Source of the DNA: a virus
Direction: 5' to 3' (one strand)
Virus record (IMG/VR): IMGVR_UViG_3300023079_000003
Length of the DNA stretch: 64,000 nucleotides
Within the stretch, counting starts at the first letter, position 1. Each line of letters starts with the position of its first letter. Below are positions 13,066 to 29,958 of this stretch, piece by piece. The translations under genes were made by a program, and so were the position numbers. The notes below the pieces were generated by a model. The model was given only the letters and a program-made list of their open reading frames with translations. It did not search any database and was not told the origin of the DNA.

Positions 13066-13366
13066 CACCGACCTGGCCGACCGGCTGATGCGGAAGCTGT
13101 GGCACCGGCGCACCCAACTCGCCTACGAACTGAACGTGCAGTGCAACTACGCGTTCATCGGCCGGGAGATTGAGATGCTGCTCAGGGTCCACGCCCCCCG
13201 CCCGGCCGACCAGCCCCCGTGGGAGACCGGCAGGCTCCCTCCTCTGATGGGCATCGACCTCGTCCCGTCCGACAGCCTCCGCCACGACGAGTGGCAGCTC
13301 CGCGACCAGTCCGGCACGGTCCGGGCCTTCGGCACCCTCACCGACATCCGCGAGGAAACCTCATGA
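13058..13366 (+). CDS. Hypothetical protein
   Basis: Coupled ORF. Confidence 0.65.
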   Translation: MDSTDLADRLMRKLWHRRTQLAYELNVQCNYAFIGREIEMLLRVHAPRPADQPPWETGRLPPLMGIDLVPSDSLRHDEWQLRDQSGTVRAFGTLTDIREETS

Positions 13367-14325
13367 AATTCTTCAACCGGACACCCGAGCCCGACCCGGA
13401 CGACCAGGTGTCCGTGACCATCACCCCGCCCGACGCCGACGGCAAACGCCGCTTCACCCTCACACCCCCGCAGGAGACCCCCGTGCCCGACCAGCAGACC
13501 CCCGACGACGCCTTCGACGGTGGCAGCGCCCTCACCGAGGATCAGTACGCCGCCCGTAAGGCGTGGCAGATGGACCCAGCCGCCCTCGCGGACGAAACCC
13601 CCACAGCCCAGCAGGCCGCCGTGAACGACCCCACCGTCCAGCGGTTCGTCAACGCCCCCGGCGAGGTCCGCCGGCGCATCCGCGACCTGGAAGCAGCCGA
13701 CCTCGCCCCGTCCGAGCACGAGCACGAGCAAGGCCCGGCCATCACCGGCACCCAGCTCACCATCACCCCAGAGGACATCTGCCCCAACTGCGGGCAGCGG
13801 ATGCCCTCCGACGCCGCCCTCCTGCAGGCCGGTGTCGACCTCCTCACCGGCGCGCAGGTTACCGACCAGCTCACCGTCCGCTTCTACGAGATCGTGTTCG
13901 AGCTGGCCCCCGAAGCCCGCGCCCTCTTCGACGACCCCGACGCCGGGAAGTCCTGGCAAGAGCTGGTCGACGTCAACGCCCCGACCGACTCCTGGGGGCG
14001 CAACCAGAGGGACAAGATCGTCTCCTCGATCGCCCTCCTGGCCAAGCACTACGGCGACACCGAGGAAACCAGCGACGACCCCGACTTCCTCGACCGCGCC
14101 CTCGTCTCCATGGGCCGCGCCCACTCCCGGTTCAACCTCACGGTCGAGCACTACGGCATCGTCGGCACCGCCCTGCTCCGCGCACTGCAGGAGTTCGCCG
14201 GCGACGCCTGGACCCCCGCCATGGAGGCCGCCTGGACCCGCGCCTACAAGTACATGGCCGGGACGATGCTGCGCGGCGAGGCAACCCCGAACCGGGGGCA
14301 GACGGGACGCCGGCGGCGGGTATGA
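13363..14325 (+). CDS. Globin-domain protein (acidic N-terminal region, CxxC, then a 3/3 bacterial haemoglobin domain)
   Basis: RFYEIVFELAPEARALF (B10 Tyr, CD1 Phe), NQRDKI (E7 Gln), MGRAHSRFNLTVEHYGIVGTALL (F8 His), WTPAMEAAWTRAY. Confidence 0.9.
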   Translation: MKFFNRTPEPDPDDQVSVTITPPDADGKRRFTLTPPQETPVPDQQTPDDAFDGGSALTEDQYAARKAWQMDPAALADETPTAQQAAVNDPTVQRFVNAPGEVRRRIRDLEAADLAPSEHEHEQGPAITGTQLTITPEDICPNCGQRMPSDAALLQAGVDLLTGAQVTDQLTVRFYEIVFELAPEARALFDDPDAGKSWQELVDVNAPTDSWGRNQRDKIVSSIALLAKHYGDTEETSDDPDFLDRALVSMGRAHSRFNLTVEHYGIVGTALLRALQEFAGDAWTPAMEAAWTRAYKYMAGTMLRGEATPNRGQTGRRRRV

Positions 14326-17268: not shown

Positions 17269-17293
17269 TCAGCAAGCTAGCTGGCGCTATTGT
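17265..17293 (+). promoter_or_regulatory. Housekeeping-sigma promoter heading the biosynthetic operon
   Basis: TTGATC-N17-TATTGT upstream of the GGGAGG RBS and GTG at 17332. Confidence 0.65.
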
Positions 17294-17331
17294 CGCCCCA
17301 ACAGGAGTGTGTCCACAGCCGGGAGGCAACA

Positions 17332-18210
17332 GTGCCCGAAGACCGCCGCCTCGACTACATGCCCCTCACCGAGGTCGCGCGGGCACACCGCAACCCGAAG
17401 AAGCATGACTCCGTCGGCATCGCCCGCAGCATGGACGAGTTCGGAGTTGTCGAGATCCCCGCCCTGGACGAACGCACCGGGCGCCTCGTCGCCGGCCACG
17501 GCCGACTCGACGTGTGGTTGGCGGCGGCGGCCAAGCAGCAGCAGCCGCCCTCCGGGGTGAAGGTCGGACCGGACGGCGTCTGGCTGGTCCCCGTCCTGCG
17601 CGGCTGGGCATCAAAGGACGACGCGCACGCTGAGGCGTACCTCGTCGGCTCGAACCAGCTCACCATCAACGGCGGGTGGGACGATCCCGGCCTGGCCAAG
17701 CTCCTCGACGACCTGGCCGCAGAGGACAACAGCCTCCTCCGGGTCACCGGCTTCGACGACGACCAGCTCGACAAGCTCCTCTCGTCGACCGACACCCTGG
17801 GCGACCCCGCCGGCGGGTTCCTCAAGGACATGGCCTCCCAGCCGTTCGGCCAGACCGTCGAGCAGCAGCCCCCACCCCAGGGGCCACCGGACTACGACTG
17901 GCCCCCGCCACCGCAGACCTACACCCCCGGCGAGCCCGGCGGCGGCGGCGACGAGGAAGGCCCGGTCGGACCGCAGCTCCCCCCGGAGTTCCCGCCCACC
18001 GCGTACGGCCCCGCCGGCACTGCCGCCCAGTACGCCCCGGTCTCCTGGGTTCTCCACGCCGATGCGCGCACCCGGCTCCGCGCGGTCCTCCGCCACCTGC
18101 AGAAGACCCGCGAACTGGCCACCTCCGCCGAAGCCGTCAACGCCCTGGTCGACGACTACATCACCGCGCACAACATCACCATCGAGCAGGCAGAGGAACA
18201 GCCCGCATGA
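17332..18210 (+). CDS. ParB/Srx N-terminal domain protein
   Basis: NPKKHD..GIARS..EFG...DERTGRLVAGHGRL; N.LT..GGWD...L; TGFDDDQL; Pro/Gln linker. Confidence 0.85.
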   Translation: MPEDRRLDYMPLTEVARAHRNPKKHDSVGIARSMDEFGVVEIPALDERTGRLVAGHGRLDVWLAAAAKQQQPPSGVKVGPDGVWLVPVLRGWASKDDAHAEAYLVGSNQLTINGGWDDPGLAKLLDDLAAEDNSLLRVTGFDDDQLDKLLSSTDTLGDPAGGFLKDMASQPFGQTVEQQPPPQGPPDYDWPPPPQTYTPGEPGGGGDEEGPVGPQLPPEFPPTAYGPAGTAAQYAPVSWVLHADARTRLRAVLRHLQKTRELATSAEAVNALVDDYITAHNITIEQAEEQPA

Positions 18211-18686
18211 CCGGCATCCAGATCGTGAACGTCACCCAAACGGCCAGCACCGGCATCCTTGAGGCGCACCTCGGATGGAAGGACGTCCACGGCGCCCCCG
18301 CCGTCGGAATCCCCATGCAGTCGAACGGGCAGCTCGGCGCCGACCTCCTCCACGTCCGCGCCGGCGAGCAGTTCCCCGTGCACACCCACCCCGGGGATCA
18401 CCTGCTCTACTGCGTAGGCGGCCAGGGCACGATCACCGTCGACCAGGTCGTCTACCAGATCCGCCCCGGCGACCTCTACATGGTCGACGGCGCCGTGCCC
18501 CACGCGGTCGGCGCGATCACCGACCACACCATCCTTGCCATCGGCTCCCCCCACAAGCCGGTCGATTCCCCGGAGCGGATGACCTGGTGCGACTGGGAGG
18601 GCAACCCGGTCGAGAAACCGGTCGGCGTCGCCGGCGGCGCGGTACTCCACGATTACGTGTCCCCCGTCCTCCGCCGCATCAAATGA
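18207..18686 (+). CDS. Cupin domain protein
   Basis: FPVHTHPGDHLLYCVGGQG...PGDLYMVDGAVPHAV. Confidence 0.85.
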   Translation: MTGIQIVNVTQTASTGILEAHLGWKDVHGAPAVGIPMQSNGQLGADLLHVRAGEQFPVHTHPGDHLLYCVGGQGTITVDQVVYQIRPGDLYMVDGAVPHAVGAITDHTILAIGSPHKPVDSPERMTWCDWEGNPVEKPVGVAGGAVLHDYVSPVLRRIK

Positions 18687-19837
18687 GCCTTGACCTCACC
18701 GGCCGCCGCTGGCCTGAGGCACCGCGCTCCTCCGAGCGCCTGGCCGTCGCCGAAGCCCTCCAATCCCAGGTGTGGACCGGCGGGCAGTTCACCGAGCTGG
18801 TCGAGCAGCAGATGACAGAGCTGACCGGCGCCCGACACTGCGTGACCTTCAACTCCTGCACCTCCGCACTCCACGCCGTCCTTGCCTCCGACCAGTACGC
18901 GTCGACGACCGGGCGCATCTACACCACCCCCCTGACGTTCGTCGGCACGGTCACCGGCGCCGGGCACCTCGGCTACGACATCGAGTACCGCGACGTCCAC
19001 CCGGACACCCTGAACCTGAACCTGCCACCGGCTAACCCCCTGCCGGTCTACAACGGCCGGATTCTCGCCGTCGACCTTCACGGGGTGCCCCATAGCATCG
19101 ACCGGGATCAGGTCATCACCGACGCGTGCCAGTCGCTCGGCACCACGATCGGCGGCAAGCACCTCGGCGCGCACGGTACGCACTGCTGGTCGTTCTCCTC
19201 GGCCAAGCTCATCGCCGCCCCCGACGGCGGGGCAGTCACCACGAACAATGCCGCCCTCGCCGCCCTGCTCCGCCGGCAACGCGACTACGGGGTACGGACC
19301 CAGACCGTCCCCGGCCGGTCGAACGGCATGATGATGCACCGCGCCGACGGGCACAACTGGCGGCCGTCCGAGCTGACCATGGCCCTCGTTGCCGCCCGAC
19401 TGGAGATCCTCCAATGGGACCGCGACTCCACGGACGGCAACCTCTCCGCCCGCGCGTACCGGGTCGGCACCCGCCTCCACGAGGCCATCGACCTGGCCGG
19501 ACTGTGGAGGCAGCAGACCCGGCCGAACACCCGGGTTGCCTGGCACAAAATCCGGATCGGCCCCCCGAACTGGCAGGAACACTCCGGTGTCCACGCCGCC
19601 AACGAGCTGGGTCACCGCCTCGAGGCCGCTGGTATCCCCGTCCACCGGTGGGGTGCCATCCCCCTTCACCGGCACCCCGCCTACTTCAAGCCGACCTCGT
19701 TCCCGGTCGCGGAAGCCGCCGCCCGGTCGACGTTCTGCCTCGGCACCGAGGACTGCCCCCCGCTCACCTGGACCCCCGAAGAGGTCGAACAGGTGTGCGA
19801 CACCATCATCAAGATCGGGAAGACGGTCAGCGTATGA
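18683..19837 (+). CDS. DegT/DnrJ/EryC1/StrS-family PLP aminotransferase
   Basis: FNSCTSALH, TPLTFVGT, DACQSLG, WSFSSAKLI (PLP lysine), DGGAVTTN. Confidence 0.9.
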   Translation: MSLDLTGRRWPEAPRSSERLAVAEALQSQVWTGGQFTELVEQQMTELTGARHCVTFNSCTSALHAVLASDQYASTTGRIYTTPLTFVGTVTGAGHLGYDIEYRDVHPDTLNLNLPPANPLPVYNGRILAVDLHGVPHSIDRDQVITDACQSLGTTIGGKHLGAHGTHCWSFSSAKLIAAPDGGAVTTNNAALAALLRRQRDYGVRTQTVPGRSNGMMMHRADGHNWRPSELTMALVAARLEILQWDRDSTDGNLSARAYRVGTRLHEAIDLAGLWRQQTRPNTRVAWHKIRIGPPNWQEHSGVHAANELGHRLEAAGIPVHRWGAIPLHRHPAYFKPTSFPVAEAAARSTFCLGTEDCPPLTWTPEEVEQVCDTIIKIGKTVSV

Positions 19838-20973
19838 ACCCGCAGGTCAAGGTCGGCATCATCGGCGTCGGGAACTGCGCGCGCGCCCTCCTCGAAGGCA
19901 CCGCCTACTACCGGGCGCGCGAGTCCGGCACCCAGTTCACCGGCCGCGAGCGCATTGCCGGGCTCATGCACACCATGGTCGGACCGTACGGTCCCGGCGC
20001 GATCGAGCCCGTAGCCGCCTGGGACGTCGACACCGAGAAGGTCGGGAAAGACCTGTGGACCGCGATCCGCTCCGGGCAGAACCTCGACGTCGGCATCCGC
20101 CTCGACCGAGGTGAGGAGCCGGTCGGCGCGGACGTTGAAGTCCAGCGAGCCCCCACCCTCGACGGCACCGGCGCACGCTACCTCGACAAGATCACCCTCG
20201 CGGAGGACTGGCCGAACATCGACGGCCGCGAGGTCGAGCAGCAGATCCGCGACTCCGGCGTGCAGGTGCTCCTGAACTACCTGCCCGTCGGCTCTCAGAC
20301 CGCCACCGAGTGGTGGGCCGAGCGCGCCCTCAACACCGGCTGCGCGTTCGTGAACAACATCCCGGTATTCATCGCCCGGAACCCGACCTGGCGGCAGCGG
20401 TTCCGCGACGCCGGCCTCGCCCTCGTCGGAGACGACATCAAGTCACAGCTCGGCGCCACCTACCTCCACCGCGCCCTCGTGAAGGCGTTCTCGGACCGGG
20501 GCATCACCCTCGACCGCACCTTCCAGCTCAACGTCGGCGGCAACATGGACTTCTACAACATGCTGGAGCGCAGCCGGTTGGTGACGAAGAAGGAGTCCAA
20601 GACCGGCGCCGTCACCGACGCCTACGCCGGCAAGCTCGCCCCCGACAACGTGCACATCGGCCCCTCCGACTACGTGCCGTGGCTGGGCGACACCAAGATC
20701 GCCATCGTCAAGTGCGAAGGCCGGGGGTTCGGCGGGGCGCCGATCGAGGTCGACATGACGATCAAGGTGCCCGACTCCCCGAACAGCGCCGGGGTGGTCA
20801 TCGACGCGGCCCGGCTCGCCCGGTACGCCACCGACCGCAACGACGTGCACGTTGACCGGTGGGTGTCAGCCTGGCTGTTCAAGGCGCCCCCGGCCGACGT
20901 CGCGCAGGAGTCCGACCTGCTGGCCATGCAGCGCCTCGACGACTGGCTGCACGGCGAGGCCGGACTTCGATAG
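19834..20973 (+). CDS. ino1: Inositol-3-phosphate synthase (myo-inositol-1-phosphate synthase)
   Basis: IIGVGNCA, NYLPVGS, GDDIKSQLGAT, QLNVGGNMDF, SKTGAV, DSPNSAG..ID. Confidence 0.95.
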   Translation: MNPQVKVGIIGVGNCARALLEGTAYYRARESGTQFTGRERIAGLMHTMVGPYGPGAIEPVAAWDVDTEKVGKDLWTAIRSGQNLDVGIRLDRGEEPVGADVEVQRAPTLDGTGARYLDKITLAEDWPNIDGREVEQQIRDSGVQVLLNYLPVGSQTATEWWAERALNTGCAFVNNIPVFIARNPTWRQRFRDAGLALVGDDIKSQLGATYLHRALVKAFSDRGITLDRTFQLNVGGNMDFYNMLERSRLVTKKESKTGAVTDAYAGKLAPDNVHIGPSDYVPWLGDTKIAIVKCEGRGFGGAPIEVDMTIKVPDSPNSAGVVIDAARLARYATDRNDVHVDRWVSAWLFKAPPADVAQESDLLAMQRLDDWLHGEAGLR

Positions 20974-21695
20974 TGCCGATCACCCCGTACCTGATCTCCC
21001 TCCCGCGCAGGCAGGACCGGCGGGACGAGTGGGCCACGGCCTGGGACGGGTACGGATTCAACCCACCCCGGGTGATCGACGGCGTTGACGGCTCAGCCCT
21101 CCCGGCGGACCGGGTCGACTCGCACATGAGGACGGCCCTCGCCGCCGGGCACAAGATCAAGCACCGGCGCCACTTCGCCGGCACCCTGGGCTGCCTCCTC
21201 GCCCACCGCGCTGCCTGGCAGACCTGGCTCATGGACAGATCCCCGGGCGGGTATCTCCTGCTCATGGAGGACGACGCCTCCCCCACCCCCGGGCTCACCC
21301 CCGCCCGGTGGCTGCTCGACCTGCAGCAAGCTGTCCGGCAGCTCCCGCCCGGCTGGCTGATGCTGAACCTCGGGGCCAAGGTCCGCAACCAGCCCCGTGA
21401 GGTGCCCGGCGCCCCGAGCCTGGCCTACTCCGGCCGCGACACCCAATGCCTCCACGCCATCCTCTACACGGTCGATGGGGTCATGGCCATGCTCAAGGCC
21501 ACCGCCGACCAGGAGCAGCCCCTCGACTTCGCGTGGCGTCCCGTCCTCGCCGGCGGCAACTGCTACTCGACCCGCCGGTGGCTGGCCATCCAGCGCTGGT
21601 CGTACTCGGACATCTCCCACTTCACCCGGTCGCCGCACCTCGATCACCGGCAGCGCATCGCCCGGTTCCACCAGCCGGAGGTGATCCACCGGTGA
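20973..21695 (+). CDS. Glycosyltransferase family 25-like
   Basis: YLISLPRRQDRR...IDGVDG...GCLLAHRAAW...LLMEDDA...HAILYT. Confidence 0.8.
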   Translation: MPITPYLISLPRRQDRRDEWATAWDGYGFNPPRVIDGVDGSALPADRVDSHMRTALAAGHKIKHRRHFAGTLGCLLAHRAAWQTWLMDRSPGGYLLLMEDDASPTPGLTPARWLLDLQQAVRQLPPGWLMLNLGAKVRNQPREVPGAPSLAYSGRDTQCLHAILYTVDGVMAMLKATADQEQPLDFAWRPVLAGGNCYSTRRWLAIQRWSYSDISHFTRSPHLDHRQRIARFHQPEVIHR

Positions 21696-22483
21696 CCGCC
21701 GACCTGGACGTCATCAACACCTGGACCAACCCCAACCCGGGGCTGCGCCGGCGCACCTACGAGCAGGTGCCGCGCCGGGGCGGCAGGTGGCGGCCGACCT
21801 GGACGGTCGACGGAGTCACGATCAACCGGCCCGGCTGGGACTACGACCGCAACCAGTTCACCGGCGTCCGGAACAACGGCACCGCCTGGACCGCCGACTT
21901 CACCCCCGGGCTGCTCTACACGATCGCCTCCCAGGTGCGCGGCTGGTGCTGGCCCCGCCAGGGCGGCACCCTGTACGAGCTGGCCCAAGCCTCGACCGGG
22001 CAGGTCGTCGAGATCGGCTCCTGCTTCGGCCTCTCCGCCGTGTGGACCGGCTGGGGCATCCGCACCTCGTCCGACCCCGACCGGCGCCTTCATTGCGTCG
22101 ACACCTGGCACAGCCTCGACGTCAGGGGTGACGGCTCCCCCGCCGGGAAGTCCTCCCAGCCGGAGTTCATCCAAAACATGACCTACACCGGCCTCGCCTA
22201 CCACACCTGCCTCCACCAGATGCTCTCCGAACAGGCCGCTGCGACCTGGGACGAGGGACCTGTCGGCATGATCTACATCGACGGCTGGCACACCTACGCC
22301 ATGGCAAAAGCCGACCACCTGTCCTGGCTCCCCCACCTCACCCCCGGCGCGGTAGTCGCCTTCGACGACTGCTCCCCCGCCTGGCCCGGGGTGCTCCGCT
22401 ACCAGCGCGAGCTGGCCGGGCGCGGAGACCACGAGCTGATCGGCCGGGCCGACTCGATGCTCACCTGGAGGTACCGGCCGTGA
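21692..22483 (+). CDS. Class I SAM-dependent methyltransferase (Methyltransf_24-like)
   Basis: VVEIGSCFGLS, HCVDTW, MIYIDGWHTY, LTPGAVVAFDD. Confidence 0.85.
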   Translation: MTADLDVINTWTNPNPGLRRRTYEQVPRRGGRWRPTWTVDGVTINRPGWDYDRNQFTGVRNNGTAWTADFTPGLLYTIASQVRGWCWPRQGGTLYELAQASTGQVVEIGSCFGLSAVWTGWGIRTSSDPDRRLHCVDTWHSLDVRGDGSPAGKSSQPEFIQNMTYTGLAYHTCLHQMLSEQAAATWDEGPVGMIYIDGWHTYAMAKADHLSWLPHLTPGAVVAFDDCSPAWPGVLRYQRELAGRGDHELIGRADSMLTWRYRP

Positions 22484-23310
22484 GAACCGCCCTGAAGGCC
22501 AAGAGCGCCTACCGCAACGAGGACGTCGCCCGGGTGTTCGCCACCATCCGCGACTTCATCAGCGAGGACGAGGCCAACGCCGCCGTCGACCAGGCAGTCC
22601 GCGAGGTCCACCAGACCGTCGGCCTCCGCAACCTCGACCGGGTCGCCTACGGCTGGTCCGGCGGCAAGGACTCCATCGCCCTGCAGGTCGTCATGGAAGC
22701 CGCCGGCGTACAACGGGCCATCCTCGGCACCATCCCCCACCTCGAGTTCAAGGCGTACCTCGACTGGGTCGAGGCGAACCAGCCGGACGGCCTCTACCAC
22801 CACATGAACATGGCACTCGACGTCGATTGGCTGGCCCGGCCCGGAAACGACCGGTACCTGTTCCCCAAGACCTCCCGGCTCGGCTACTTCTGGACCACCG
22901 CCGGCACCCGCGCCGCGCAGAAGGCATACCAGCGGCAGTACGACCCGCCGTTCCAGATTTACGGGCGCCGCTGGGCCGACGGCAACCAGATCGGACCGGA
23001 CGGGTTCTCCGTCTCCGCCGCCACCGGCATCCGCTCCTACAGCCCGCTGAGGGCCTGGTCCCACGAGACCGTCCTCGGCGTAATCCACTACTTCAACCGG
23101 CCTCTCCCTCCCGTGTACGGGTGGCCTCACGGGTGGACCGCCGGCACCGGCACCTGGTGCGGTCGCCGTGTCGGCACCGACGACGAGGCATGGGCCGAGA
23201 CCTGGACCATCGAGTCCGACCGGGTGCGCGAGGCAGCCGACGCCGGAGTGACCGGCGCCGCCGAGTGGATGCAGAGGAACGGCCATGGCCGGACAGAACA
23301 AAAGACCTGA
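22480..23310 (+). CDS. PP-loop / PAPS reductase-family protein
   Basis: YGWSGGKDS, YGRRWAD, SPLRAWSHETV..YF..PLPPVY. Confidence 0.85.
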   Translation: MRTALKAKSAYRNEDVARVFATIRDFISEDEANAAVDQAVREVHQTVGLRNLDRVAYGWSGGKDSIALQVVMEAAGVQRAILGTIPHLEFKAYLDWVEANQPDGLYHHMNMALDVDWLARPGNDRYLFPKTSRLGYFWTTAGTRAAQKAYQRQYDPPFQIYGRRWADGNQIGPDGFSVSAATGIRSYSPLRAWSHETVLGVIHYFNRPLPPVYGWPHGWTAGTGTWCGRRVGTDDEAWAETWTIESDRVREAADAGVTGAAEWMQRNGHGRTEQKT

Positions 23311-24658
23311 GACCTACACCCGGACCGGCCGGGGCGGCGCCGCGCACGTCCTCCCCCGAGTGCAGCTCGACACCGACGTCATGACCCTGGCCAAGGAGCG
23401 CATCGCCATCGCCGCCGAGATCCACGACAACATCCTCGTGGCGTTCTCCGGCGGCAAGGACTCCACCGTCACCCTGCAGCTCACCCTCGCCGTTCTCCAC
23501 GAGAACCCCGAGCTGGGTGCCAAGCACCTGCCGCTGCGGGTCGTGTTCGGGGACGAGGAGTGCATCCCGAAGGAGACCGAGGAGTACGTCCGCCGGGTGT
23601 CGCAGCGGCCGGACGTCCGCCTTGAGTGGTACTGCCTGCCGTTGAAGATGCGCAACGCCTGCTCCCGCAAGCACCCCGAGTGGTGGACGTGGGCGCCCGA
23701 GTCCGAGGAGCTGTGGGCCAGGCCCCTGCCCCCGGAGGCGATCACCCACCTCGACGGCTTCACGAACTGGCCACCCGAAGCCCGCCTGTCGTGGCCGCAG
23801 ACCAACGAACTCCTCGCACCCCCGCACCTCGGGAACGTGTGCATCCTGATGGGCATCCGCGCGCAGGAGTCCCTGACCCGGCTCCGCGCCGTGTCCATCG
23901 CCGGCAAGCGCGAATACAACTGGCTGGTCAAGCAGGGCGGTGGCAACGAAATCCTCAACGGCTCCTCAGGCGGGAACGTGTGGAAGGCGTACCCGATCTA
24001 CGACTGGCTGACCGAGGACGTGTGGACGGCCCCGAAGCGGTTCGGCTGGGACTACAACCACGCCTACGACCTGCTCGCCATGGCCGGGGTCAACCCCGCG
24101 AAGCAGCGATGCTCGCCGGCGTTCGGGGAGGAGCCGATCGGCGGCCTCCACGTCTTCGCCCAAGCCTTCCCTGAGGTGTGGGAGAAGATGGTCTACCGGG
24201 TGCCCGGTGTCGGCTCCGCCTACCGGTACGCCCTCACCGAGCTGTACGGGCACGGCTCCCGCCCGGAGCGCCCGGACGACATGACCTGGCACGACTTCAT
24301 CCTGCACTTCGTGGCCAAGCACCCGGACGGCATGAGGCAGAAGCTCGCCGCCCGGCTGACCGACATCATCCGCCGGCACTACCGGGTCACGTCGAACCCG
24401 ATGCTGGTCAAGGCCCCCCACCCCGACAGCGGCCTCTCCTGGGACTGGCTCCTCATGGTCGCCATGCGCGGGGACACCAAGCAGAGGAAGCAGCCGACGA
24501 ACCGGATCACCCGGGAGCCCGTCGAGTTGAAACGCATGTGGCACCGGTACGCGAAGGAGCTGGACGACACGATCAAGGCAGGCCAGTTCGATATCCTGTC
24601 CTATCCTCGTCACGCCCCCCGCGACCCCTACGCCCTGATCCCTGAGGAGTTCCGGTGA
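23285..24658 (+). CDS. IbrA/YbdN-like PAPS reductase-family protein (DUF3440-type)
   Basis: VAFSGGKDS, WYCLP..MRNACS..WW.W, MGIRAQES..R, YPIYDW.TEDVW, DYN.AYD. Confidence 0.85.
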   Translation: MAGQNKRPETYTRTGRGGAAHVLPRVQLDTDVMTLAKERIAIAAEIHDNILVAFSGGKDSTVTLQLTLAVLHENPELGAKHLPLRVVFGDEECIPKETEEYVRRVSQRPDVRLEWYCLPLKMRNACSRKHPEWWTWAPESEELWARPLPPEAITHLDGFTNWPPEARLSWPQTNELLAPPHLGNVCILMGIRAQESLTRLRAVSIAGKREYNWLVKQGGGNEILNGSSGGNVWKAYPIYDWLTEDVWTAPKRFGWDYNHAYDLLAMAGVNPAKQRCSPAFGEEPIGGLHVFAQAFPEVWEKMVYRVPGVGSAYRYALTELYGHGSRPERPDDMTWHDFILHFVAKHPDGMRQKLAARLTDIIRRHYRVTSNPMLVKAPHPDSGLSWDWLLMVAMRGDTKQRKQPTNRITREPVELKRMWHRYAKELDDTIKAGQFDILSYPRHAPRDPYALIPEEFR

Positions 24659-24960
24659 CCCTTACCGAAGACCCGTCCGACCCGCGACTCACCCACGGAC
24701 CCGACGACGGACCCGCCGCGCAGGCCCCGGTCTACCTGGTCCTGTCGGAGGAGGAGCGAGCCCAGGGTTTCATCCGCCCGGTCCGGCGAACCTACGTGCA
24801 CACGGTCTGTGGTGCGGTCACGACGATGGCCCCGGCGATCGCAGAGACGTACGCGCGCAACCCCGGCTTCTACGGGGCCACCTACTGCACCGGGTGCAGC
24901 CAGCACCTCCCCGTTGGCGAGTTCACCTGGGACGGCGACGGCAGCGTGGTCGGATCATGA
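24655..24960 (+). CDS. Small Zn-finger protein
   Basis: H.VCG..T.M...AETYARNP.FYGATYCTGC..H. Confidence 0.75.
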   Translation: MTLTEDPSDPRLTHGPDDGPAAQAPVYLVLSEEERAQGFIRPVRRTYVHTVCGAVTTMAPAIAETYARNPGFYGATYCTGCSQHLPVGEFTWDGDGSVVGS

Positions 24961-25574
24961 CCGATACCGATCGCCCCGTATCCACCCCTCACCGGGAAGT
25001 CATGACCGATTTTGGTCAGCTCGACCCGGGCGGGTCGGCCCTCTCCCTGGTCGCCCAGCCCGTCAGCAGCATCCAGTGGGTGCCGGCCTCGGCGCTGTCC
25101 GCGAACGACTGGAACCCCAACAAGCAGGCTCCGCCCGAGTTCAGACTGCTGAAGCAGTCCCTGCTCGAGGACGGCTGGACACAGCCGATCGTGGTCCGCG
25201 CCCACGACGACGGCGCCCGCCTGGAGATCGTCGACGGATTCCACCGGTGGACCCTCGCCTCCAAGGACAAGCAGGTCGGCGCGCTCACCACCGTCGACGG
25301 GCAGGTGCTCGTCCCCGTCGTCACCCTGCACGAGACCTCCGACCAGGAGGCCCGCGCCTCGACGATCCGCCACAACCGGGCGCGCGGCACCCACCTCGTG
25401 CTCCGCATGGCCGATATCGTGGCCGCCCTCGTGAAGGCCGGCATGACGACCGAGCAGGTGCAAAAGCAGCTCGGCATGGACGAGGAAGAGGTCGAGCGGC
25501 TCCTCGACCGGGGCAACATGCTCAACCGTGGATCCCGCACCGACGGCAGCTTCGGCACCGGCTGGACAGTCTGA
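24957..25574 (+). CDS. IbrB/YbdM-like ParB domain protein
   Basis: ANDWNPN..APPE..LL..SLLEDGWTQPIV, IVDGFHRW, ASTIRHNRARGTH. Confidence 0.85.
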   Translation: MTDTDRPVSTPHREVMTDFGQLDPGGSALSLVAQPVSSIQWVPASALSANDWNPNKQAPPEFRLLKQSLLEDGWTQPIVVRAHDDGARLEIVDGFHRWTLASKDKQVGALTTVDGQVLVPVVTLHETSDQEARASTIRHNRARGTHLVLRMADIVAALVKAGMTTEQVQKQLGMDEEEVERLLDRGNMLNRGSRTDGSFGTGWTV

Positions 25575-27019
25575 TGACGTACTCCACCAAGGGCCTCTAC
25601 ATCAACGGCGAGTGGGACCAGACCGGCTACGGCAAGGGGATCTACTCGCCCATTGACGGCCGCCTGATCGGCACCGCCTGGTTTGGGCAGATCACCCACC
25701 TCGCCGCCGCCTCCGCAGCCGCCCGCAACGCCCTCGACGGCGAATGGTCCCGGTGGACCGCAGAGGACCGGGCCGCCGCGCTGCGCCGGCTCGCAGACGG
25801 ATTCCACGACCGGCAGCAGGATCTCGGCGCGATGATCCTCGCGGAGGTCGGATCCCCGGTCGACTTCGCGTACGGGCCGCAGATCGACCACCCGCTCCGC
25901 ATCATCAACTACTACGCGTCCGTGGCCGAGAAGTACCGGTTCTCGGAGTCGCGGGTCAACGGGGGCGGGGACGCGCCGGGCACGATCGTCCGCAGGCTCC
26001 CGGTCGGCGCGGTCGGAATCATCACCCCGTGGAACATGCCCCTCAAAACGATCATGATGAAGATGGCGCCCGCGCTCGCCGCCGGGTGCACGGTCGTGAT
26101 CAAACCGGCCGAGGAAACCCCCTTCAACGCCATGGTGCTGGCCGAGCTGGTCGACGCCGCCGGATTCCCGCCCGGCGTGGTCAACGTCGTCCCGGCCGTA
26201 CGCGAGGACGCCGCCTACCTGCCGACCTCGACCTACCTCGACAAGATCGCCTTCACCGGGTCAACCGCCGTCGGCAAGTGGATCGCCCAGCAGTGCGGCG
26301 CCGGCATCCGCCGCTACTCCCTCGAACTGGGCGGCAAGTCCCCGACCGTGCTCCTCCCCGACGCCGACCTCGACGCCTGGGAGGCGTCCGTCCCCTCAGC
26401 CTCCCTGCTCAACAACGGGCAGATTTGCTCGAACCAGACACGCATCCTGTACCCCCGGAAGCTGCAGACCGAGGTCATCCGCCGGCTCGAACGGGTCCTC
26501 GACCGGCAGCGGGTCGGAGACCCCTCCCTCCCGGGCACCACGATGGGGCCGCTCATCACCACCGCCGCAGTCGACCGCTACCACGACGCCCTCAGGGGCG
26601 CTCAGCTCGCCGGCGGCACCGTACGGTACGCGGAGGACGCGGTTGACCCGCGACGCCCCTCAGGGGGCAACTGGGTCACCCCCGCCCTGGTCTCCGGCGT
26701 CGGCCGCGAAGCCCTCATCGCCCGCAAAGAGGTGTTCGGGCCGGTCCTCGTCGCCATGCCGTACGACAACGAGCCGCACGCGGTCGAGCTGGCCAACGAC
26801 TCGCCGTACGGTCTCCACGCCGGCGTCTGGTCCCACCGGAAGTCCGCCGCCCTGGCCGTGGCCAACCGGCTGCGGGTCGGGCAGATCCAGATCAACGGTG
26901 CGGACATGCCGCTGCACACCCCCCTGGGCGGGTTCAAGGAGTCCGGCTGGGGCCGCGAGCTGGGACCTGAGGGCATGACCGGCTACCTCGAAACCAGTGC
27001 GACGGTGGCCTCATGGTGA
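25574..27019 (+). CDS. NAD(P)+-dependent aldehyde dehydrogenase
   Basis: ITPWNMP, KPAEETP, FTGSTAVG, ELGGKSP, NGQICS, EVFGPV, GGFKESGWGRE. Confidence 0.95.
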   Translation: MTYSTKGLYINGEWDQTGYGKGIYSPIDGRLIGTAWFGQITHLAAASAAARNALDGEWSRWTAEDRAAALRRLADGFHDRQQDLGAMILAEVGSPVDFAYGPQIDHPLRIINYYASVAEKYRFSESRVNGGGDAPGTIVRRLPVGAVGIITPWNMPLKTIMMKMAPALAAGCTVVIKPAEETPFNAMVLAELVDAAGFPPGVVNVVPAVREDAAYLPTSTYLDKIAFTGSTAVGKWIAQQCGAGIRRYSLELGGKSPTVLLPDADLDAWEASVPSASLLNNGQICSNQTRILYPRKLQTEVIRRLERVLDRQRVGDPSLPGTTMGPLITTAAVDRYHDALRGAQLAGGTVRYAEDAVDPRRPSGGNWVTPALVSGVGREALIARKEVFGPVLVAMPYDNEPHAVELANDSPYGLHAGVWSHRKSAALAVANRLRVGQIQINGADMPLHTPLGGFKESGWGRELGPEGMTGYLETSATVASW

Positions 27020-27501
27020 TGCGCAACGACATGGCGTTCCGGGCCGAGGTCGCCAAGCGCCGGGCCGAGGCCATCAAGCTCCGGCTGGCCGGGGCCACCT
27101 ACCAGCAGATCGCAGACTCCGAGCTGTACCCGGAGGGCACCCACAGGTCGCAAGCGTTCGTCGACATCAAACGCGCCCTGCAGGAGCACCAGGCTGAACT
27201 GCACGCCGACGTCGAGCTGCTGCGCACCGAGGACCTGCTCCGGCTCGACCGGCTGAACCTCGCCATGTGGCAGCGCGCGATCGGCGGCGACGTCCGCGCG
27301 GCAACGCTTTGCTTGAAGATCATCGAGCAGCGGAGCAAGCTCACGGGTACCGAGGCGCCCCAGCGCCACGCCTGGGAGAGCGAGTCCGATATTGACCGCG
27401 CCATACGAGACCTTCGAGAGCAGCTCGGCGAACCGGGACGACAAGGTCCGCCTGCTATCGAAACTGGAGGAGTTGCAGAGGCTTCGCCGACTGGCGACTG
27501 A
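27013..27501 (+). CDS. terS: Terminase small subunit (HTH type)
   Basis: RRAEAIKLRLAGATYQQIA...RLDRL..AMW..A..GD..A....IEQRSKL.G; lies directly upstream of TerL. Confidence 0.7.
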   Translation: MVMRNDMAFRAEVAKRRAEAIKLRLAGATYQQIADSELYPEGTHRSQAFVDIKRALQEHQAELHADVELLRTEDLLRLDRLNLAMWQRAIGGDVRAATLCLKIIEQRSKLTGTEAPQRHAWESESDIDRAIRDLREQLGEPGRQGPPAIETGGVAEASPTGD

Positions 27502-29038
27502 ACAGGCCCGCGCACGCTTCCTTGAGGTCAACCCCACCCCCGGGGTGTTCGCCCGGCGGATGCAACGCAACGTCAAGCAGACGCCGGCGCTTGACGCGAT
27601 CGACCGCGAGCTGGTCCGCCTCTCCCGCGTCCCGCTTGACCGTGGGCGGCTCATGGTGTTCGTCCCGCCACAGGAGGGCAAGTCCACCCGGGTCTCCTGC
27701 TGGTACCCGCTGTGGCGGCTCGCCCAGGACCCGACCCTCCGCATCGCCATCGTGTCCTACAACCAGGACAAGGCCCGCCGGTGGGGGCGCTGGCTCCGGG
27801 CCGCGATCCGAGGCTTCCCCGAGCTGGGCCTGACCCTGAAGAACGACAGCCGCGCATCTGACCACTTCGAGCTGACCTCCGGCGGGTCCGTCCTGTGCGT
27901 CGGTGTCGGCGGCGGCATCACCGGCGAACCGGTCGATGAGATGATCATCGACGACCCGGTGCGCGGCCGGGCCGAGGCAGAGTCCCCCCGCTACCGGGAA
28001 GCGGCCTGGGAGTGGTGGGAGTCGAACGGGGCCACCCGGTTGTCCTCCCGGGGCCGGGTGGTCCTCATGCTCACCCGCTGGCACGCGGACGACCTCGCCG
28101 GCAGGCTCATCAAGAACGAGCCCATGGAGTGGCACGTCCTGCGCATCCCCGCCATCCGGCACCCCGAACTGCCGGTCATCCGAGGGCACGACGGCGCCTC
28201 CGTCTACGACCCCAACGGTGAACTGATCTCCGTCCAGAACCGCAGGCCCGGCTACTACAAGGAGCTGAAGGCCAAACGGTCCGGGTACGTGTGGCGGTCG
28301 GTCTACGACCAGGACCCCGTGGCCGCAGAGGGCAACCTGTTCAAGCGCGACGACTTCCGGTTCTGGCAGCCGCTCCCGCGTGACCCGGCCCGGGTCGACG
28401 CCCTCTCCGGTGCGCGCATCCAGCTCCCCGACATCGGCGTCAACATCTACCTCGCGGACTACTGGCGGTTCATCACCGTCGACCTGGCCGCGTCGAAGAA
28501 GACCAGCGCCGACTTCACCGTCTGCTCCGTGTGGATGATCTTCGACGGGCACCTGATCCTCCTCGACCGCGTCCGAGGCCGGATCGAGGAGGCCGCGCAC
28601 TGGGACATGCTGCGCCCCCTCGTCGCTAAGTGGGCCGCCCCTGACGTGTTCGTCGAGCGAGGGTTCATCGGCACCACCCTCGTCATCGACGCCACGAAGC
28701 ACAACATCCGCATCCAGCCGGTCGACCCCGACACGGACAAGGTCACCCGGGCGCTGCCGGCGACCTACCGCACCGCCTCGCACACCTGCTGGTTCCCCGC
28801 CCAGGTCGACTGGCTGGACGAGTGGCTGGACGAACTGGCCGAGTTCCCCCAGGGCGCCCACGATGACCAGGTCGACACGTTCGCGTACGCGGCCCGCATC
28901 GCCTCCGCGCACTGGCTCCCCCCGGAGTCCCCCAAGCGCGAGACCGAGCAGACCGCAACGGCGGCCTCCGACCTGGCGTTCCAAGCCTCGACCGGGCAGT
29001 CCGGCGGGGTCGACTTCTTCAAGAACTGGCCTGTCTAG
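27392..29038 (+). CDS. terL: Terminase large subunit
   Basis: PPQEGKS Walker A, IIDDPVRG Walker B, TRWHADDLAG, VDLA...DFT, FPQGAHDDQVD. Confidence 0.95.
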   Translation: MTAPYETFESSSANRDDKVRLLSKLEELQRLRRLATEQARARFLEVNPTPGVFARRMQRNVKQTPALDAIDRELVRLSRVPLDRGRLMVFVPPQEGKSTRVSCWYPLWRLAQDPTLRIAIVSYNQDKARRWGRWLRAAIRGFPELGLTLKNDSRASDHFELTSGGSVLCVGVGGGITGEPVDEMIIDDPVRGRAEAESPRYREAAWEWWESNGATRLSSRGRVVLMLTRWHADDLAGRLIKNEPMEWHVLRIPAIRHPELPVIRGHDGASVYDPNGELISVQNRRPGYYKELKAKRSGYVWRSVYDQDPVAAEGNLFKRDDFRFWQPLPRDPARVDALSGARIQLPDIGVNIYLADYWRFITVDLAASKKTSADFTVCSVWMIFDGHLILLDRVRGRIEEAAHWDMLRPLVAKWAAPDVFVERGFIGTTLVIDATKHNIRIQPVDPDTDKVTRALPATYRTASHTCWFPAQVDWLDEWLDELAEFPQGAHDDQVDTFAYAARIASAHWLPPESPKRETEQTATAASDLAFQASTGQSGGVDFFKNWPV

Positions 29039-29047
29039 GAGGCACCC

Positions 29048-29212
29048 GTGTCCGCTCTCGCCGCCGTCATCTTCTTCGCCCTGGCCCTGATCCTCGACGT
29101 CCTCGACCAGTCCGGCGACCTGGTGTCGACCTTCACCCTGGCCGGGCTGCTCTGCATCGCCCTGCACCTCACCGGATTCATCACCGCCGGACCGTGGACC
29201 CGCCGGCAGTGA
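29048..29212 (+). CDS. Small 2-TM membrane protein (54 aa, not in the ORF track)
   Basis: VSALAAVIFFALALILDVLDQSGDLVSTFTLAGLLCIALHL...; AGGAGG RBS. Confidence 0.7.
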   Translation: MSALAAVIFFALALILDVLDQSGDLVSTFTLAGLLCIALHLTGFITAGPWTRRQ

Positions 29213-29958
29213 CCTACCCCCGGCCGTACCGGCTCCTCGGGTCGAACAGCGAACTCGCCGGGGAGCGCATCCTGAACTGGTCGCTCCCCGCCTGGGCCGG
29301 GCGGCTCAAGGACGGCCGCACCTACAACACCTGCCCGCAGGCCGGCGTCTGCCACCTCGCCTGCTACGCCCTGTCCGGCACCTACCGGTTCTCCAACGTC
29401 CGAGCCCGGCACGAGGCCAACCTGGCGTACGTCCTCGACGACCTCCCCCGCTGGCACGACCACATGTGCTGGGAGCTGTCCCGCCGCAAGCGCACCTTCA
29501 CCTGGGTTCGCATCCACGACTCCGGCGACTTCTTCTCGGACGACTACACCAACGCCTGGCTGTCGATCATCCGGAACACCCCCGAGATGGCCTTCTACGC
29601 CTACACCAAAGAGGTCGACCGGTTCCGGCGTCTCGTCGAGCCCGACCCGCCCGGGAACTTCCTCTGGGCGTACTCCTGGGGCGGTAAGCAGGATCGTCAG
29701 CTTGATGACCAGCGCGACCGGGTAGCGGACGTCTTCCCCGACATGGCGTCCATGCAGGCCGCCGGCTACTCCGACCAGTCCGAGTCCGACGTCCTCGCCG
29801 TCACCGGCCCGAGGCAGGTGGGCATCCACGTGAACAACATCCCCCACCTGAAGAAGAAGCAGGGGCCGCGATCATTCCGGGCGTGGCAGCGGGAGGCAGA
29901 CGCCAAGCACGATCAGCGCGGCCAGCGGGCCAACGGCACCAGCATCGACCGGAGCTGA
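29209..29958 (+). CDS. GP88-family protein
   Basis: WSLPA...TCPQAGVCHLACYA...WVRIHDSGDFF...FYAYTK. Confidence 0.75.
   Translation: MTYPRPYRLLGSNSELAGERILNWSLPAWAGRLKDGRTYNTCPQAGVCHLACYALSGTYRFSNVRARHEANLAYVLDDLPRWHDHMCWELSRRKRTFTWVRIHDSGDFFSDDYTNAWLSIIRNTPEMAFYAYTKEVDRFRRLVEPDPPGNFLWAYSWGGKQDRQLDDQRDRVADVFPDMASMQAAGYSDQSESDVLAVTGPRQVGIHVNNIPHLKKKQGPRSFRAWQREADAKHDQRGQRANGTSIDRS

What the first reader, a model, noticed from the sequence alone, without database searches (positions are those of the whole stretch)
22480..25574. Two PP-loop/PAPS-reductase paralogues beside an IbrAB-like pair and a Zn finger
Seen: two distinct SGGKDS proteins in tandem, then a CxxC/His protein and an IbrB-like ParB. 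Known: IbrA/IbrB (YbdN/YbdM) form a conserved prophage pair of unclear biochemistry, and PAPS-reductase-family proteins (DndC, SspD) act in DNA phosphorothioation. Inference: this is a two-step adenylation/transfer core acting on the DNA backbone or a base. No cysteine desulfurase is present, which favours amine or sugar transfer over sulfur unless the host supplies it.
Basis: partly seen in the sequence, partly recalled or inferred. Interest (0 to 1): 0.7.

Follow-up and report, generated by a model that had tools for sequence, protein, structure and literature searches.

The report
Amine-fed IbrA/IbrB phage enzyme cassette
A high-GC soil phage carries, fused to its DNA-packaging operon, the widespread but biochemically unstudied IbrA/IbrB enzyme pair plus a second ATP-activating enzyme that elsewhere is coupled to an ammonia-producing subunit and here to an aminocyclitol pathway, so it probably attaches an amine to phage DNA, though no experiment has tested this.

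Summary
SGGKDS occurs exactly twice in the six-frame translation, in two adjacent genes (22480-23310, here "PPA"; 23285-24658, IbrA-like). A Zn-type 101-aa gene and an IbrB-like ParB gene follow.

IbrA and IbrB are real YbdN/YbdM homologues (30% and 41% identity). PPA is a distant paralogue of IbrA and founds a discrete family of about 300 clusters at 50% identity. None is in an isolated phage.

Of 92 PPA loci, 88 carry IbrA and IbrB, usually just before the terminase. PPA travels with a second ParB and a variable "supply" set:
- a symporter, often with an outer-membrane protein (67 loci)
- Cupin plus a translationally coupled Ntn glutaminase (9)
- DegT plus an Ino1-like gene (10, including this window and Streptomyces prophages)

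Neither PP-loop family has a conserved cysteine. No desulfurase is in the window, and DndC/SspD profiles fail.

The Zn protein is not part of the module. It belongs to a huge separate phage family, and 0 of 81 of its loci carry IbrA or PPA.

Best reading (about 0.45): an ATP-dependent amine-ligating DNA-modification cassette. The chemistry and the target are inferred, not shown.

This scan has already noted the general cassette on many other genomes. The aminocyclitol-fed form is the rarer variant.

The parts
17290..18210 (+). ParB-like protein 2 (the second ParB of the cassette; in relatives it sits beside PPA)
   Evidence: phrog_498 9.4e-22 and phrog_620 7e-21. It matches the N-terminal ParB part of the PADLOC MTase_II model at 1.2e-13. 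The divergent ParB next to PPA in other loci matches it best in 32 cases.
18207..18686 (+). Cupin_2 metalloprotein (HxHxxxH...H motif)
   Evidence: 77% identical to the Cupin_2 gene of L056. ATGA overlaps at both ends. Cupin also accompanies PPA in the glutaminase lineage.
18683..19837 (+). DegT/DnrJ/EryC1 PLP aminotransferase
   Evidence: PF01041 8.4e-41. Conserved upstream of PPA in L053-L058, L063 and L064.
19834..20973 (+). myo-inositol-1-phosphate-synthase-like enzyme
   Evidence: PF01658 2.9e-31 and phrog_33138 7.6e-84. Always paired with DegT.
20973..21695 (+). GT25-type glycosyltransferase (seen only in this window among the compared loci)
   Evidence: PF01755 2.5e-5, phrog_2835 4.7e-9. 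Presence/absence.
21692..22483 (+). Methyltransf_24 methyltransferase
   Evidence: PF13578 4.4e-21. Also present in L056 and L058.
22480..23310 (+). PPA: stand-alone PP-loop ATP pyrophosphatase of the PAPS-reductase-like clade, with no conserved Cys
   Evidence: WSGGKDS motif. 40-sequence alignment A1. AF2 pLDDT 96. Structural matches: FAD synthase PAPS domain Z 15.2 (rmsd 2.9, 169 aligned), PAPS/APS reductases Z 14.0-14.5, CysD Z 14.3, GMP synthase Z 13.5. The family has 297 clusters at E<=1e-30.
23285..24658 (+). IbrA/YbdN-like PP-loop enzyme (PAPS_reduct + DUF3440)
   Evidence: Pfam and phrog_2302 8e-80. 30% identity over 344 aa to E. coli YbdN, E 2e-36. AF2 pLDDT 88. Structural matches: FAD synthase PAPS domain Z 17.2 (rmsd 3.3, 174 aligned), CysD Z 16.0.
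24655..24960 (+). 101-aa H/C3/H zinc-type protein. An inserted, independent phage gene, not a conserved member of the cassette.
   Evidence: More than 2200 clusters at E<=0.01; the listed best hits are 67-78% identical. Invariant H49, C52, C78, C81 and H84. No homologue in 142 IbrA/PPA loci. 0 of 81 of its own loci carry IbrA or PPA.
24957..25574 (+). IbrB/YbdM-like ParB/Srx-fold protein (DGFHR motif)
   Evidence: PF02195 and phrog_2159 5.4e-60. 41% identity to YbdM, E 5e-38. Motif located. Adjacent to IbrA in 51 of 52 loci.
25574..27019 (+). Aldehyde dehydrogenase, coupled at both ends (TGATG to IbrB; 7-nt overlap with TerS)
   Evidence: TIGR04284 2.2e-102. Also present in L001, L056 and L107 after IbrB. 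Junctions.
27013..27501 (+). Terminase small subunit (position-based call)
   Evidence: Lies directly before TerL. tblastn relatives sit in the same position in L042, L043 and L052. No family hit in NCBIfam.
27392..29038 (+). Terminase large subunit (start codon uncertain)
   Evidence: phrog_38 2.5e-92, PF03237.

Best explanation
The four genes are the core of a 12-gene, translationally coupled operon (17290-27501) that runs straight into the terminase genes. Its skeleton is two PP-loop/ParB pairs. One pair is IbrA+IbrB, the widespread YbdN/YbdM-type pair. The other is PPA plus a second ParB, an accessory pair that is almost never found without IbrA/IbrB. Both PP-loop enzymes keep a canonical SGGKDS ATP-pyrophosphatase loop and lack any conserved cysteine. 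They therefore most likely activate an oxygen (a carboxylate, carbonyl or phosphate) by adenylation rather than carry sulfur or reduce PAPS. PPA behaves like the synthetase half of a glutamine amidotransferase. In sister phages with the same skeleton (ParB-Cupin-PPA-x-IbrA-IbrB-ALDH) it is translationally coupled to a stand-alone Ntn glutaminase. In this lineage the glutaminase is replaced by DegT, an Ino1-like gene and, in this window, a glycosyltransferase and a methyltransferase. In gut phages it is replaced by an importer. Inference: PPA ligates a nitrogen nucleophile, here an aminocyclitol made by Ino1/DegT, to an adenylated acceptor. The ParB partners bring the chemistry to phage DNA shortly before packaging, giving a modified DNA that evades host restriction. 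Shown: gene content, homology, folds, motif conservation and co-occurrence. Inferred: the amine ligation, the aminocyclitol donor, DNA as the target and the anti-defence role.
For: All junctions from ParB2 to TerS overlap by 1-26 nt. IbrA and IbrB are homologous to YbdN and YbdM. IbrA and IbrB are adjacent in 51 of 52 IMG/VR loci. 88 of 92 PPA loci carry both IbrA and IbrB; supply sets are symporter and/or outer-membrane protein 67, glutaminase 9, DegT/Ino1 10. An IbrB orthologue lies beside IbrA in 69 cases, and a second divergent ParB lies beside PPA. The glutaminases begin MCGIFG or (M)CGLF, and in L116 the PPA stop overlaps the glutaminase ATG (TAATG). L001 and L107 read Cupin-PPA-GATase-IbrA-IbrB-ALDH, against Cupin-DegT-Ino1-GT-MT-PPA-IbrA-IbrB-ALDH in the window. 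PPAs of DegT/Ino1 loci form one clade with 100/100 support on a long stem of 0.83. There is no conserved Cys in A1 or A2 and no IscS-like gene in the window. Both models fall in the PAPS-reductase-like clade, with the adenylyltransferases FAD synthase and CysD at or near the top. ParB2 and IbrB match the ParB-like N-terminal part of DNA-methyltransferase families (phrog_498, PADLOC MTase_II). A vibriophage PAPS-domain/Dam fusion, transferred together with one adjacent gene, gave escape from a Dnd system (bioRxiv 10.1101/2021.05.05.442762). TerS follows the module in about 60 of 82 loci.
Against: Nothing here or in the searched literature shows a modified nucleoside, DNA binding or any enzymatic activity for IbrA, IbrB or PPA. 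[quoted passage not shown] Fold matches tie within about 1-2 Z units among adenylyltransferases, reductases and thiolases, so the reaction type is not resolved. The window has no glutaminase, so the amidotransferase logic is carried over from relatives. ALDH, Cupin, DegT and Ino1 normally act on small molecules, so the product could be a free metabolite. No isolated phage carries PPA, so no phenotype exists. On the tree, kin share labels, so the DegT/Ino1 clade may reflect descent only.
Confidence: 0.45

Rival explanations
1. The operon makes a free small molecule, an aminocyclitol-containing amide or nucleotide conjugate. It might serve as an inhibitor, a signal or a cofactor, or decorate a virion protein or glycan. 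On this reading the PP-loop enzymes are ordinary amide ligases or nucleotidyltransferases, and DNA is never modified.
For: DegT, Ino1-like, GT25, Methyltransf_24, ALDH and Cupin are all small-molecule enzymes. IbrA's best structural and profile matches are FAD synthase and CysD, which adenylylate small molecules. Gut relatives carry an importer for a small molecule.
Against: Two ParB-fold proteins are obligate partners in nearly all loci. The same ParB type is fused to DNA methyltransferases. The cassette keeps its place beside the terminase across phages with three different terminase types. GT25 is unique to this window, so it is not core.
Confidence: 0.2
2. [quoted passage not shown] They would switch on the late operon or help the terminase recognise DNA, and the enzyme folds would be sensors.
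For: The literature labels them co-activators. The pair sits exactly where late activators lie in many siphoviruses, directly before TerS. E. coli ybdNM is a repressed operon without a known enzymatic role.
Against: Catalytic-type residues are invariant across very divergent phages: S55, G57, K58 and D59 of the SGGKDS loop (G56 and S60 are nearly invariant), D90-E91-E92, R192-x-x-E195-S196, D240-W241. A dedicated substrate supply (importer, glutaminase or a biosynthetic pathway) makes no sense for a pure regulator.
Confidence: 0.13
3. A Dnd/Ssp/BREX-4-like phosphorothioation system: IbrA and/or PPA insert sulfur into the DNA backbone, using the host's IscS.
For: Same superfamily as DndC, SspD and BrxP, with the same kind of ParB partner as DndB. 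Weak DndC hits lie at the PP-loop.
Against: The TIGR03183 score is 26.6 bits against a cut-off of 290.4. PADLOC DndC hits are confined to about 25 residues, and no SspD hit appears. Neither family has a conserved Cys, whereas DndC has a characteristic cysteine dyad (paper quoted; alignments). No desulfurase is in the window. The partners are nitrogen-handling enzymes.
Confidence: 0.05
4. RNA rather than DNA is the substrate. The PP-loop enzymes would modify a tRNA base, in the way TilS, TtcA or NcsA do, to protect translation from host anticodon nucleases.
For: NcsA, TtuA and TilS are among the structural matches at Z 11-14. The TilS mechanism, adenylating a base carbonyl that an amine then attacks, fits the amine logic.
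Against: There are no tRNA-binding accessory domains. The ParB partners point to DNA. These matches do not rank above the adenylyltransferases and reductases.
Confidence: 0.07
5. An auxiliary sulfate-assimilation gene set: the proteins reduce APS or PAPS like CysH.
For: PHROG and Pfam names, and the fold match to CysH and APS reductases at Z about 14.
Against: No conserved cysteine exists to act as the CysH-type catalytic thiol. The full SGGKDS ATP loop is kept, whereas to my knowledge it is degenerate in CysH. The partners are ParB proteins, not sulfur-pathway genes.
Confidence: 0.02

Closest known systems
E. coli IbrA/IbrB (ECOR-9) and K-12 YbdN/YbdM; phage families phrog_2302 + phrog_2159
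   Same: Same domain architecture (PAPS_reduct+DUF3440, ParB_N). 30% and 41% identity to YbdN and YbdM. Same gene order with overlapping genes.
   Different: Here the pair is embedded in a late operon with a second PP-loop/ParB pair and a biosynthetic supply set. The biochemistry of the reference pair is itself unknown.
DndC/DndB (Dnd), SspD, BrxP (BREX type 4) DNA phosphorothioation
   Same: A PAPS-reductase-superfamily PP-loop enzyme working with a ParB-fold protein on DNA; an SGGKDS-type loop.
   Different: Fails the DndC model by more than 260 bits. No SspD hit. No conserved Cys. No desulfurase, DndD or DndE seen. The partners supply nitrogen, not sulfur.
Glutamine-dependent PP-loop amidotransferases (AsnB, NadE, GuaA; phage Gat-QueC)
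   Same: A PP-loop synthetase coupled to a glutaminase. In relatives of this phage PPA is translationally coupled to an Ntn (MCGIFG) glutaminase. GMP and NAD synthetases are structural matches at Z 10-13.5.
   Different: The PP-loop domain is of the PAPS-reductase type, not the Asn_synthase, NAD_synthase or QueC type. The glutaminase is a separate roughly 200-aa protein and is absent from this window, where DegT and Ino1 take its place.
Vibriophage PAPS-domain/Dam fusion with anti-Dnd activity (Piel et al., bioRxiv 10.1101/2021.05.05.442762)
   Same: A phage-borne PAPS-reductase-type domain joined to a DNA-modifying function, with genetic evidence for defence evasion.
   Different: That protein is a fusion to a methylase, transferred together with one adjacent gene, without ParB partners or supply genes. 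Its relation to PPA or IbrA was not tested here.
FMN adenylyltransferase / FAD synthase PAPS domain and CysD ATP sulfurylase
   Same: Best structural matches of IbrA (Z 17.2, rmsd 3.3, 174 aligned; Z 16.0) and of PPA (Z 15.2; Z 14.3). CysD is also the best PDB profile match of IbrA, E 2.6e-6. This suggests AMP transfer to a phosphate-like oxygen as one possible reaction.
   Different: 10-19% identity, no flavin or sulfate context, extra DUF3440 helical domain, ParB partner.

Membership tests
IbrA / YbdN | PAPS_reduct (PF01507) followed by DUF3440 (PF11922) | tested here: met
   PF01507 45.2 bits (cut-off 22.5) and PF11922 34.7 bits (cut-off 25).
IbrA / YbdN | Full-length sequence similarity to E. 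coli YbdN | tested here: met
   30% identity over 344 aa, E 2e-36.
IbrA / YbdN | Adjacent ParB-like partner gene (IbrB/YbdM) | tested here: met
   IbrB lies 297 nt downstream, separated only by the inserted Zn gene. The two are adjacent in 51 of 52 related loci. 41% identity to YbdM.
IbrA / YbdN | Activates prophage (eib) gene expression | not testable with these tools
   This is a genetic phenotype. Only the literature label was seen.
IbrB / YbdM (ParB/Srx fold) | ParB_N domain with a DGxHR-type motif | tested here: met
   PF02195 27.3 bits against a cut-off of 26.3. DGFHR at 25233-25247. phrog_2159 5.4e-60.
DndC (DNA phosphorothioation sulfurtransferase) | Reaches the TIGR03183 equivalog score | tested here: not met
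   IbrA scores 26.6 bits against a cut-off of 290.4. PPA has no hit. PADLOC DndC hits cover only about 25 residues.
DndC (DNA phosphorothioation sulfurtransferase) | Conserved cysteines (the DndC-specific dyad / Fe-S ligands) | tested here: not met
   No invariant or nearly invariant Cys in A1 or A2. The best Cys column in IbrA reaches 76%. The dyad is described in the paper quoted.
DndC (DNA phosphorothioation sulfurtransferase) | Linked cysteine desulfurase (DndA/IscS type) | tested here: not met
   tblastn of E. coli IscS against the window gives a best E of 0.55. A host enzyme cannot be excluded.
SspD / BrxP | Match to the PADLOC models | tested here: not met
   No SspD hit at E<=0.01. BrxP gives 12.8 bits over 24 residues.
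CysH-type PAPS/APS reductase | Catalytic C-terminal cysteine | tested here: not met
   No conserved Cys in either family. The window's PPA Cys at residue 227 is Pro in most homologues.
CysH-type PAPS/APS reductase | PAPS-reductase fold | tested here: met
   Z 14.0-14.5 for PPA and 13.3-14.8 for IbrA against CysH and APS reductases. This ties with FAD synthase and CysD.
PP-loop ATP pyrophosphatase (adenine nucleotide alpha-hydrolase superfamily) | SGGxDS loop after the first strand | tested here: met
   SGGKDS is invariant in A1. In A2, S55, G57, K58 and D59 are invariant and S60 is nearly invariant.
Glutamine-dependent PP-loop amidotransferase (two-subunit form) | Partner glutaminase with an N-terminal catalytic Cys | tested here: not met
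   Absent from the window. Present and coupled to PPA in L001, L060, L062, L107, L116, L117 and L135. So this is a 'works like' argument only.

The most novel reading that the evidence does not exclude
IbrA/IbrB plus PPA is a modular phage DNA-hypermodification platform. Its nitrogen donor is exchangeable: ammonia from a glutaminase, imported compounds, or amines made on board. This phage and several Streptomyces prophages would then put an inositol-derived aminocyclitol, possibly methylated or glycosylated, on their DNA. That would be a class of DNA modification, and an enzymology, not yet described.
Probability: 0.3. Interest if true: 0.85.

Novelty: new variant of a known kind. Interest (0 to 1): 0.62.

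Why it matters
IbrA/IbrB-type pairs are among the commonest phage genes with an enzyme fold and no known reaction. They are usually mis-annotated as "PAPS reductase" auxiliary sulfur genes or as "partition" proteins.

Four observations turn "unknown" into a testable chemical hypothesis, ATP-dependent amine ligation aimed at DNA:
- a second PP-loop family travels only with them
- that family is coupled to a glutaminase in one lineage
- it is coupled to an aminocyclitol pathway in another
- neither enzyme keeps a cysteine

If true, this adds a new, widespread class of phage DNA modifications. That would affect restriction and defence evasion, sequencing artefacts in viromes, and enzymatic DNA labelling.

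The Streptomyces sp. NRRL B-1347 prophage (L053) offers a culturable entry point.

Tried and rejected
- **Close relatives.** Megablast of 20000-29100 against 50,697 phage records found no match. The nearest held virus record, G001, is a 35-kb fragment without the region.
- **Solved structures.** PDB sequence searches with the single proteins found nothing. Profile searches gave only weak PP-loop matches.
- **Fusions.** A search for longer, fused forms of PPA found none. This is weak evidence by the tool's own note.
- **Isolated phages.** tblastn of PPA against isolated phages found one unannotated faecal metagenome record only.
- **Zn protein as a cassette member.** Rejected. No homologue at E<0.9 in 142 IbrA/PPA loci. 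No IbrA or PPA in 81 of its own loci. No recurrent neighbour.
- **My first gene calls.** The calls 25744-26646 and 26643-26978 were wrong; the real gene is the ALDH in another frame. The N-terminal 136 aa of ORF 18275-19837 is an out-of-frame artefact; the real gene there is the Cupin.
- **Apparent minus-strand glutaminase hits in L072 and L128** (29-35% identity) were not counted as evidence for coupling.
- **Literature.** Searches for IbrA/IbrB, YbdN/YbdM, DUF3440 and PAPS reductase with ParB or hypermodification found no biochemical study.
- **Tool limits.** The single genome-contig scan gave only one locus (L143), which I did not examine.

Full report
**What is there.** The window is 70% G+C tailed-phage DNA with nearly all genes on the + strand. 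It encodes a terminase, portal, tape measure and related structural genes.

The finding's coordinates hold four real genes:
- PPA, 22480-23310, 276 aa, motif WSGGKDS
- an IbrA-like gene, 23285-24658, 457 aa, motif FSGGKDS
- a 101-aa Cys/His protein, 24655-24960
- an IbrB-like ParB, 24957-25574 (the ORF opens at 24894, but the ATG overlapping the upstream stop is at 24957)

SGGKDS occurs exactly twice in all six frames of the 64 kb, so the tandem is not a chance motif.

**The unit is larger than the finding.** Twelve genes from 17290 to 27501 are joined by ATGA, GTGA, TGATG or TAGTG-type overlaps or by short coding overlaps of up to 26 nt. In order they are:
- ParB-like 2
- Cupin_2, hidden behind a spurious longer ORF
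- DegT aminotransferase
- Ino1-like synthase
- GT25 glycosyltransferase
- Methyltransf_24 methyltransferase
- PPA
- IbrA
- the Zn protein
- IbrB
- aldehyde dehydrogenase
- TerS, followed by TerL

**Identity of the pair.** IbrA has PAPS_reduct + DUF3440 and matches phrog_2302 at 8e-80. IbrB passes the ParB_N cut-off and matches phrog_2159 at 5e-60. Against E. coli K-12, IbrA is 30% identical to YbdN over 344 residues (E 2e-36), and IbrB is 41% identical to YbdM (E 5e-38). In 51 of 52 IMG/VR loci found with IbrA, an IbrB gene follows it. Membership in the IbrA/IbrB family is therefore met on every feature that can be tested in silico.

**The second PP-loop protein.** PPA has no Pfam, NCBIfam or PADLOC hit. 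It does match phrog_424, and its more distant homologues carry PF01507. Profile-profile comparison with IbrA gives 96.9% probability over 210 columns at 14% identity, so the two are old paralogues.

The AF2 model is confident (pLDDT 96). It falls in the PAPS-reductase-like clade without resolving the subfamily:

| Match | Z |
|---|---|
| FAD synthase PAPS domain | 15.2 |
| PAPS/APS reductases | 14.0-14.5 |
| CysD | 14.3 |
| NcsA | 14.0 |
| GMP synthase | 13.5 |

IbrA (pLDDT 88) gives FAD synthase Z 17.2, CysD 16.0 and APS reductase 14.8. CysD is also its best PDB profile match.

A profile search of 1.84 billion representatives finds 297 PPA-family clusters at E<=1e-30. In the listed hits the match spans essentially the whole protein, and most are about 260-270 aa. 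No fused forms were found, and no isolated phage carries PPA.

**Comparative genomics.** IMG/VR holds 259 PPA relatives. I called and clustered the genes of 143 loci and ran a tblastn panel.

- 88 of 92 PPA loci carry both IbrA and IbrB. Three of the four exceptions are cut loci.
- By contrast, only one of the 52 loci retrieved with IbrA (L001) also carries PPA.
- PPA therefore looks like an add-on to the IbrA/IbrB core.
- It comes with a second, divergent ParB placed beside it, while the IbrB orthologue sits beside IbrA in 69 cases. The skeleton is thus two PP-loop/ParB pairs.
- TerS follows in about 60 of 82 loci, across phages with Terminase_3, Terminase_6 and GpA-type large subunits.

**The variable supply genes.** Directly beside PPA lies one of three sets:
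1. **Importer, 67 loci.** A sodium:solute symporter (PF00474, phrog_20720), often with a 200-aa protein bearing a signal peptide that looks like an outer-membrane barrel.
2. **Glutaminase, 9 loci.** A Cupin_2 plus a roughly 200-aa class-II glutaminase. The glutaminase begins MCGIFG or (M)CGLF, and in L116 its ATG overlaps the PPA stop.
3. **Aminocyclitol route, 10 loci.** DegT plus an Ino1-like gene, with or without Cupin, methyltransferase, GT25 and ALDH. This set includes the window and Streptomyces prophages.

The clearest comparison is between two high-GC lineages with the same skeleton. L001 and L107 read Cupin-PPA-glutaminase-IbrA-IbrB-ALDH, with ParB2 first in L107. The window reads ParB2-Cupin-DegT-Ino1-GT25-MT-PPA-IbrA-IbrB-ALDH. 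A glutaminase has in effect been exchanged for an aminotransferase/cyclitol pathway.

On a maximum-likelihood tree of 70 PPA sequences, those from DegT/Ino1 loci form one clade (100/100) on a long stem of 0.83. That fits a change of specificity, although shared descent alone could also give this pattern.

**Sulfur or nitrogen.** Neither family has a conserved cysteine. The window's PPA Cys is Pro in most homologues, and the best Cys column in IbrA reaches 76%. IbrA scores 26.6 bits on the DndC equivalog against a cut-off of 290.4, and there is no SspD hit. IscS finds nothing in the window.

Both proteins keep the full SGGKDS loop, plus an R-x-x-E-S motif in IbrA and an R-x-x-D-G-N motif in PPA. 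This argues against a CysH-like reductase and against DndC-like sulfur chemistry.

**Why DNA is the favoured target (inference).**
- Two ParB-fold partners are obligate.
- ParB2 and IbrB match the ParB-like N-terminal part of phage and defence DNA-methyltransferase families.
- Related superfamily members (DndC, SspD, BrxP) act on DNA.
- A vibriophage PAPS-domain/Dam fusion, transferred with one adjacent gene, conferred escape from Dnd.
- The operon is co-expressed with the packaging genes.

None of this is direct evidence. The library of papers contains no biochemical work on IbrA/IbrB or YbdN/YbdM.

**The Zn protein.** It is real and strikingly conserved: more than 2200 clusters at E<=0.01, the listed best hits 67-78% identical, with invariant H49, C52, C78, C81 and H84. 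The nearest protein-atlas clusters are mostly viral, and one copy lies in a Spirosoma chromosome.

It has no homologue in any of the 142 IbrA/PPA loci. None of 81 loci carrying it has IbrA or PPA, and it has no recurrent neighbour. It is an independent small gene that happens to be inserted between IbrA and IbrB here. The "four-protein complex" idea should drop it.

**Mechanism proposed.**
- Shown: two intact ATP-pyrophosphatase-type enzymes, two ParB partners, one operon with the terminase, and exchangeable nitrogen-supply genes.
- Inferred: PPA adenylates an oxygen of an acceptor. That acceptor may be a carboxylate produced with the help of the Cupin and the ALDH, both of which belong to the shared skeleton. 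PPA then lets a nitrogen nucleophile displace AMP: ammonia in the glutaminase lineage, an Ino1/DegT-derived aminocyclitol here. IbrA/IbrB performs the DNA-directed step.
- Not decidable from sequence: which enzyme acts first, and whether the acceptor is a base, the backbone or a precursor.

**Relation to earlier notes of this scan.** After I had found the symporter association myself, a look-up showed that the scan has recorded this cassette on many other genomes (98 notes in at least 94 genomes). These include importer-fed forms and an arginine-decarboxylase form, and they carry the same tentative reading. Notes on this window flagged the ALDH and the Ino1/DegT pair. The ALDH note corrected my gene call, and I verified it. 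These are unchecked AI notes and do not count as independent support.

**Verdict.** This is a new variant (aminocyclitol-fed, with a second PP-loop/ParB pair) of a known but uncharacterised kind, the IbrA/IbrB cassette. Interest is moderate to high, because the comparative pattern now makes a specific chemistry testable.

Noticed in passing
window 24655-24960: The 101-aa H/C3/H protein belongs to a very large, unusually conserved family: more than 2200 clusters at E<=0.01, with the listed best hits 67-78% identical. The nearest protein-atlas clusters are mostly viral, and one copy lies in a Spirosoma chromosome. It has no Pfam family and no conserved neighbours. Such conservation in a small phage gene is unexplained.
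   Followed up: partly
window 18207-18686: A Cupin_2 gene is masked by a longer out-of-frame ORF (18275-19837), whose Arg/Pro-rich N-terminus is an artefact. A simple longest-ORF caller misses it.
   Followed up: yes
L075:7396-8004 and L101:4689-6173: Gut and low-GC relatives carry a sodium:solute symporter plus a 200-aa protein with a signal peptide that looks like an outer-membrane barrel, directly before PPA. This could be a phage-borne two-membrane uptake route for an unknown compound.
   Followed up: partly
L058:11192-13273: One relative has a 693-aa AMP-binding/methyltransferase fusion inserted between PPA and IbrA, and three small genes between IbrA and IbrB.
   Followed up: no
L133 (16.7 kb): This is the only long locus with PPA but no IbrA or IbrB within 8 kb on either side, an exception to the otherwise near-obligate linkage.
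   Followed up: no
window 29194-29958; L053:5996-6754; L001:25-696: A GP88-family gene (PF17338) lies after TerL in the window, but just upstream of the cassette in the Streptomyces prophage L053 and in L001.
   Followed up: no
window 13219-14325: A phage gene with a Globin domain (PF00042, 6e-10). A homologue also sits upstream of the cassette in L056.
   Followed up: no
L224 (E. coli K-12 633586-636569): In K-12, ybdNM lies tail-to-tail with ybdL, a PLP methionine transaminase. An aminotransferase next to the cellular IbrA/IbrB paralogues may be coincidence, but it echoes the DegT linkage.
   Followed up: no
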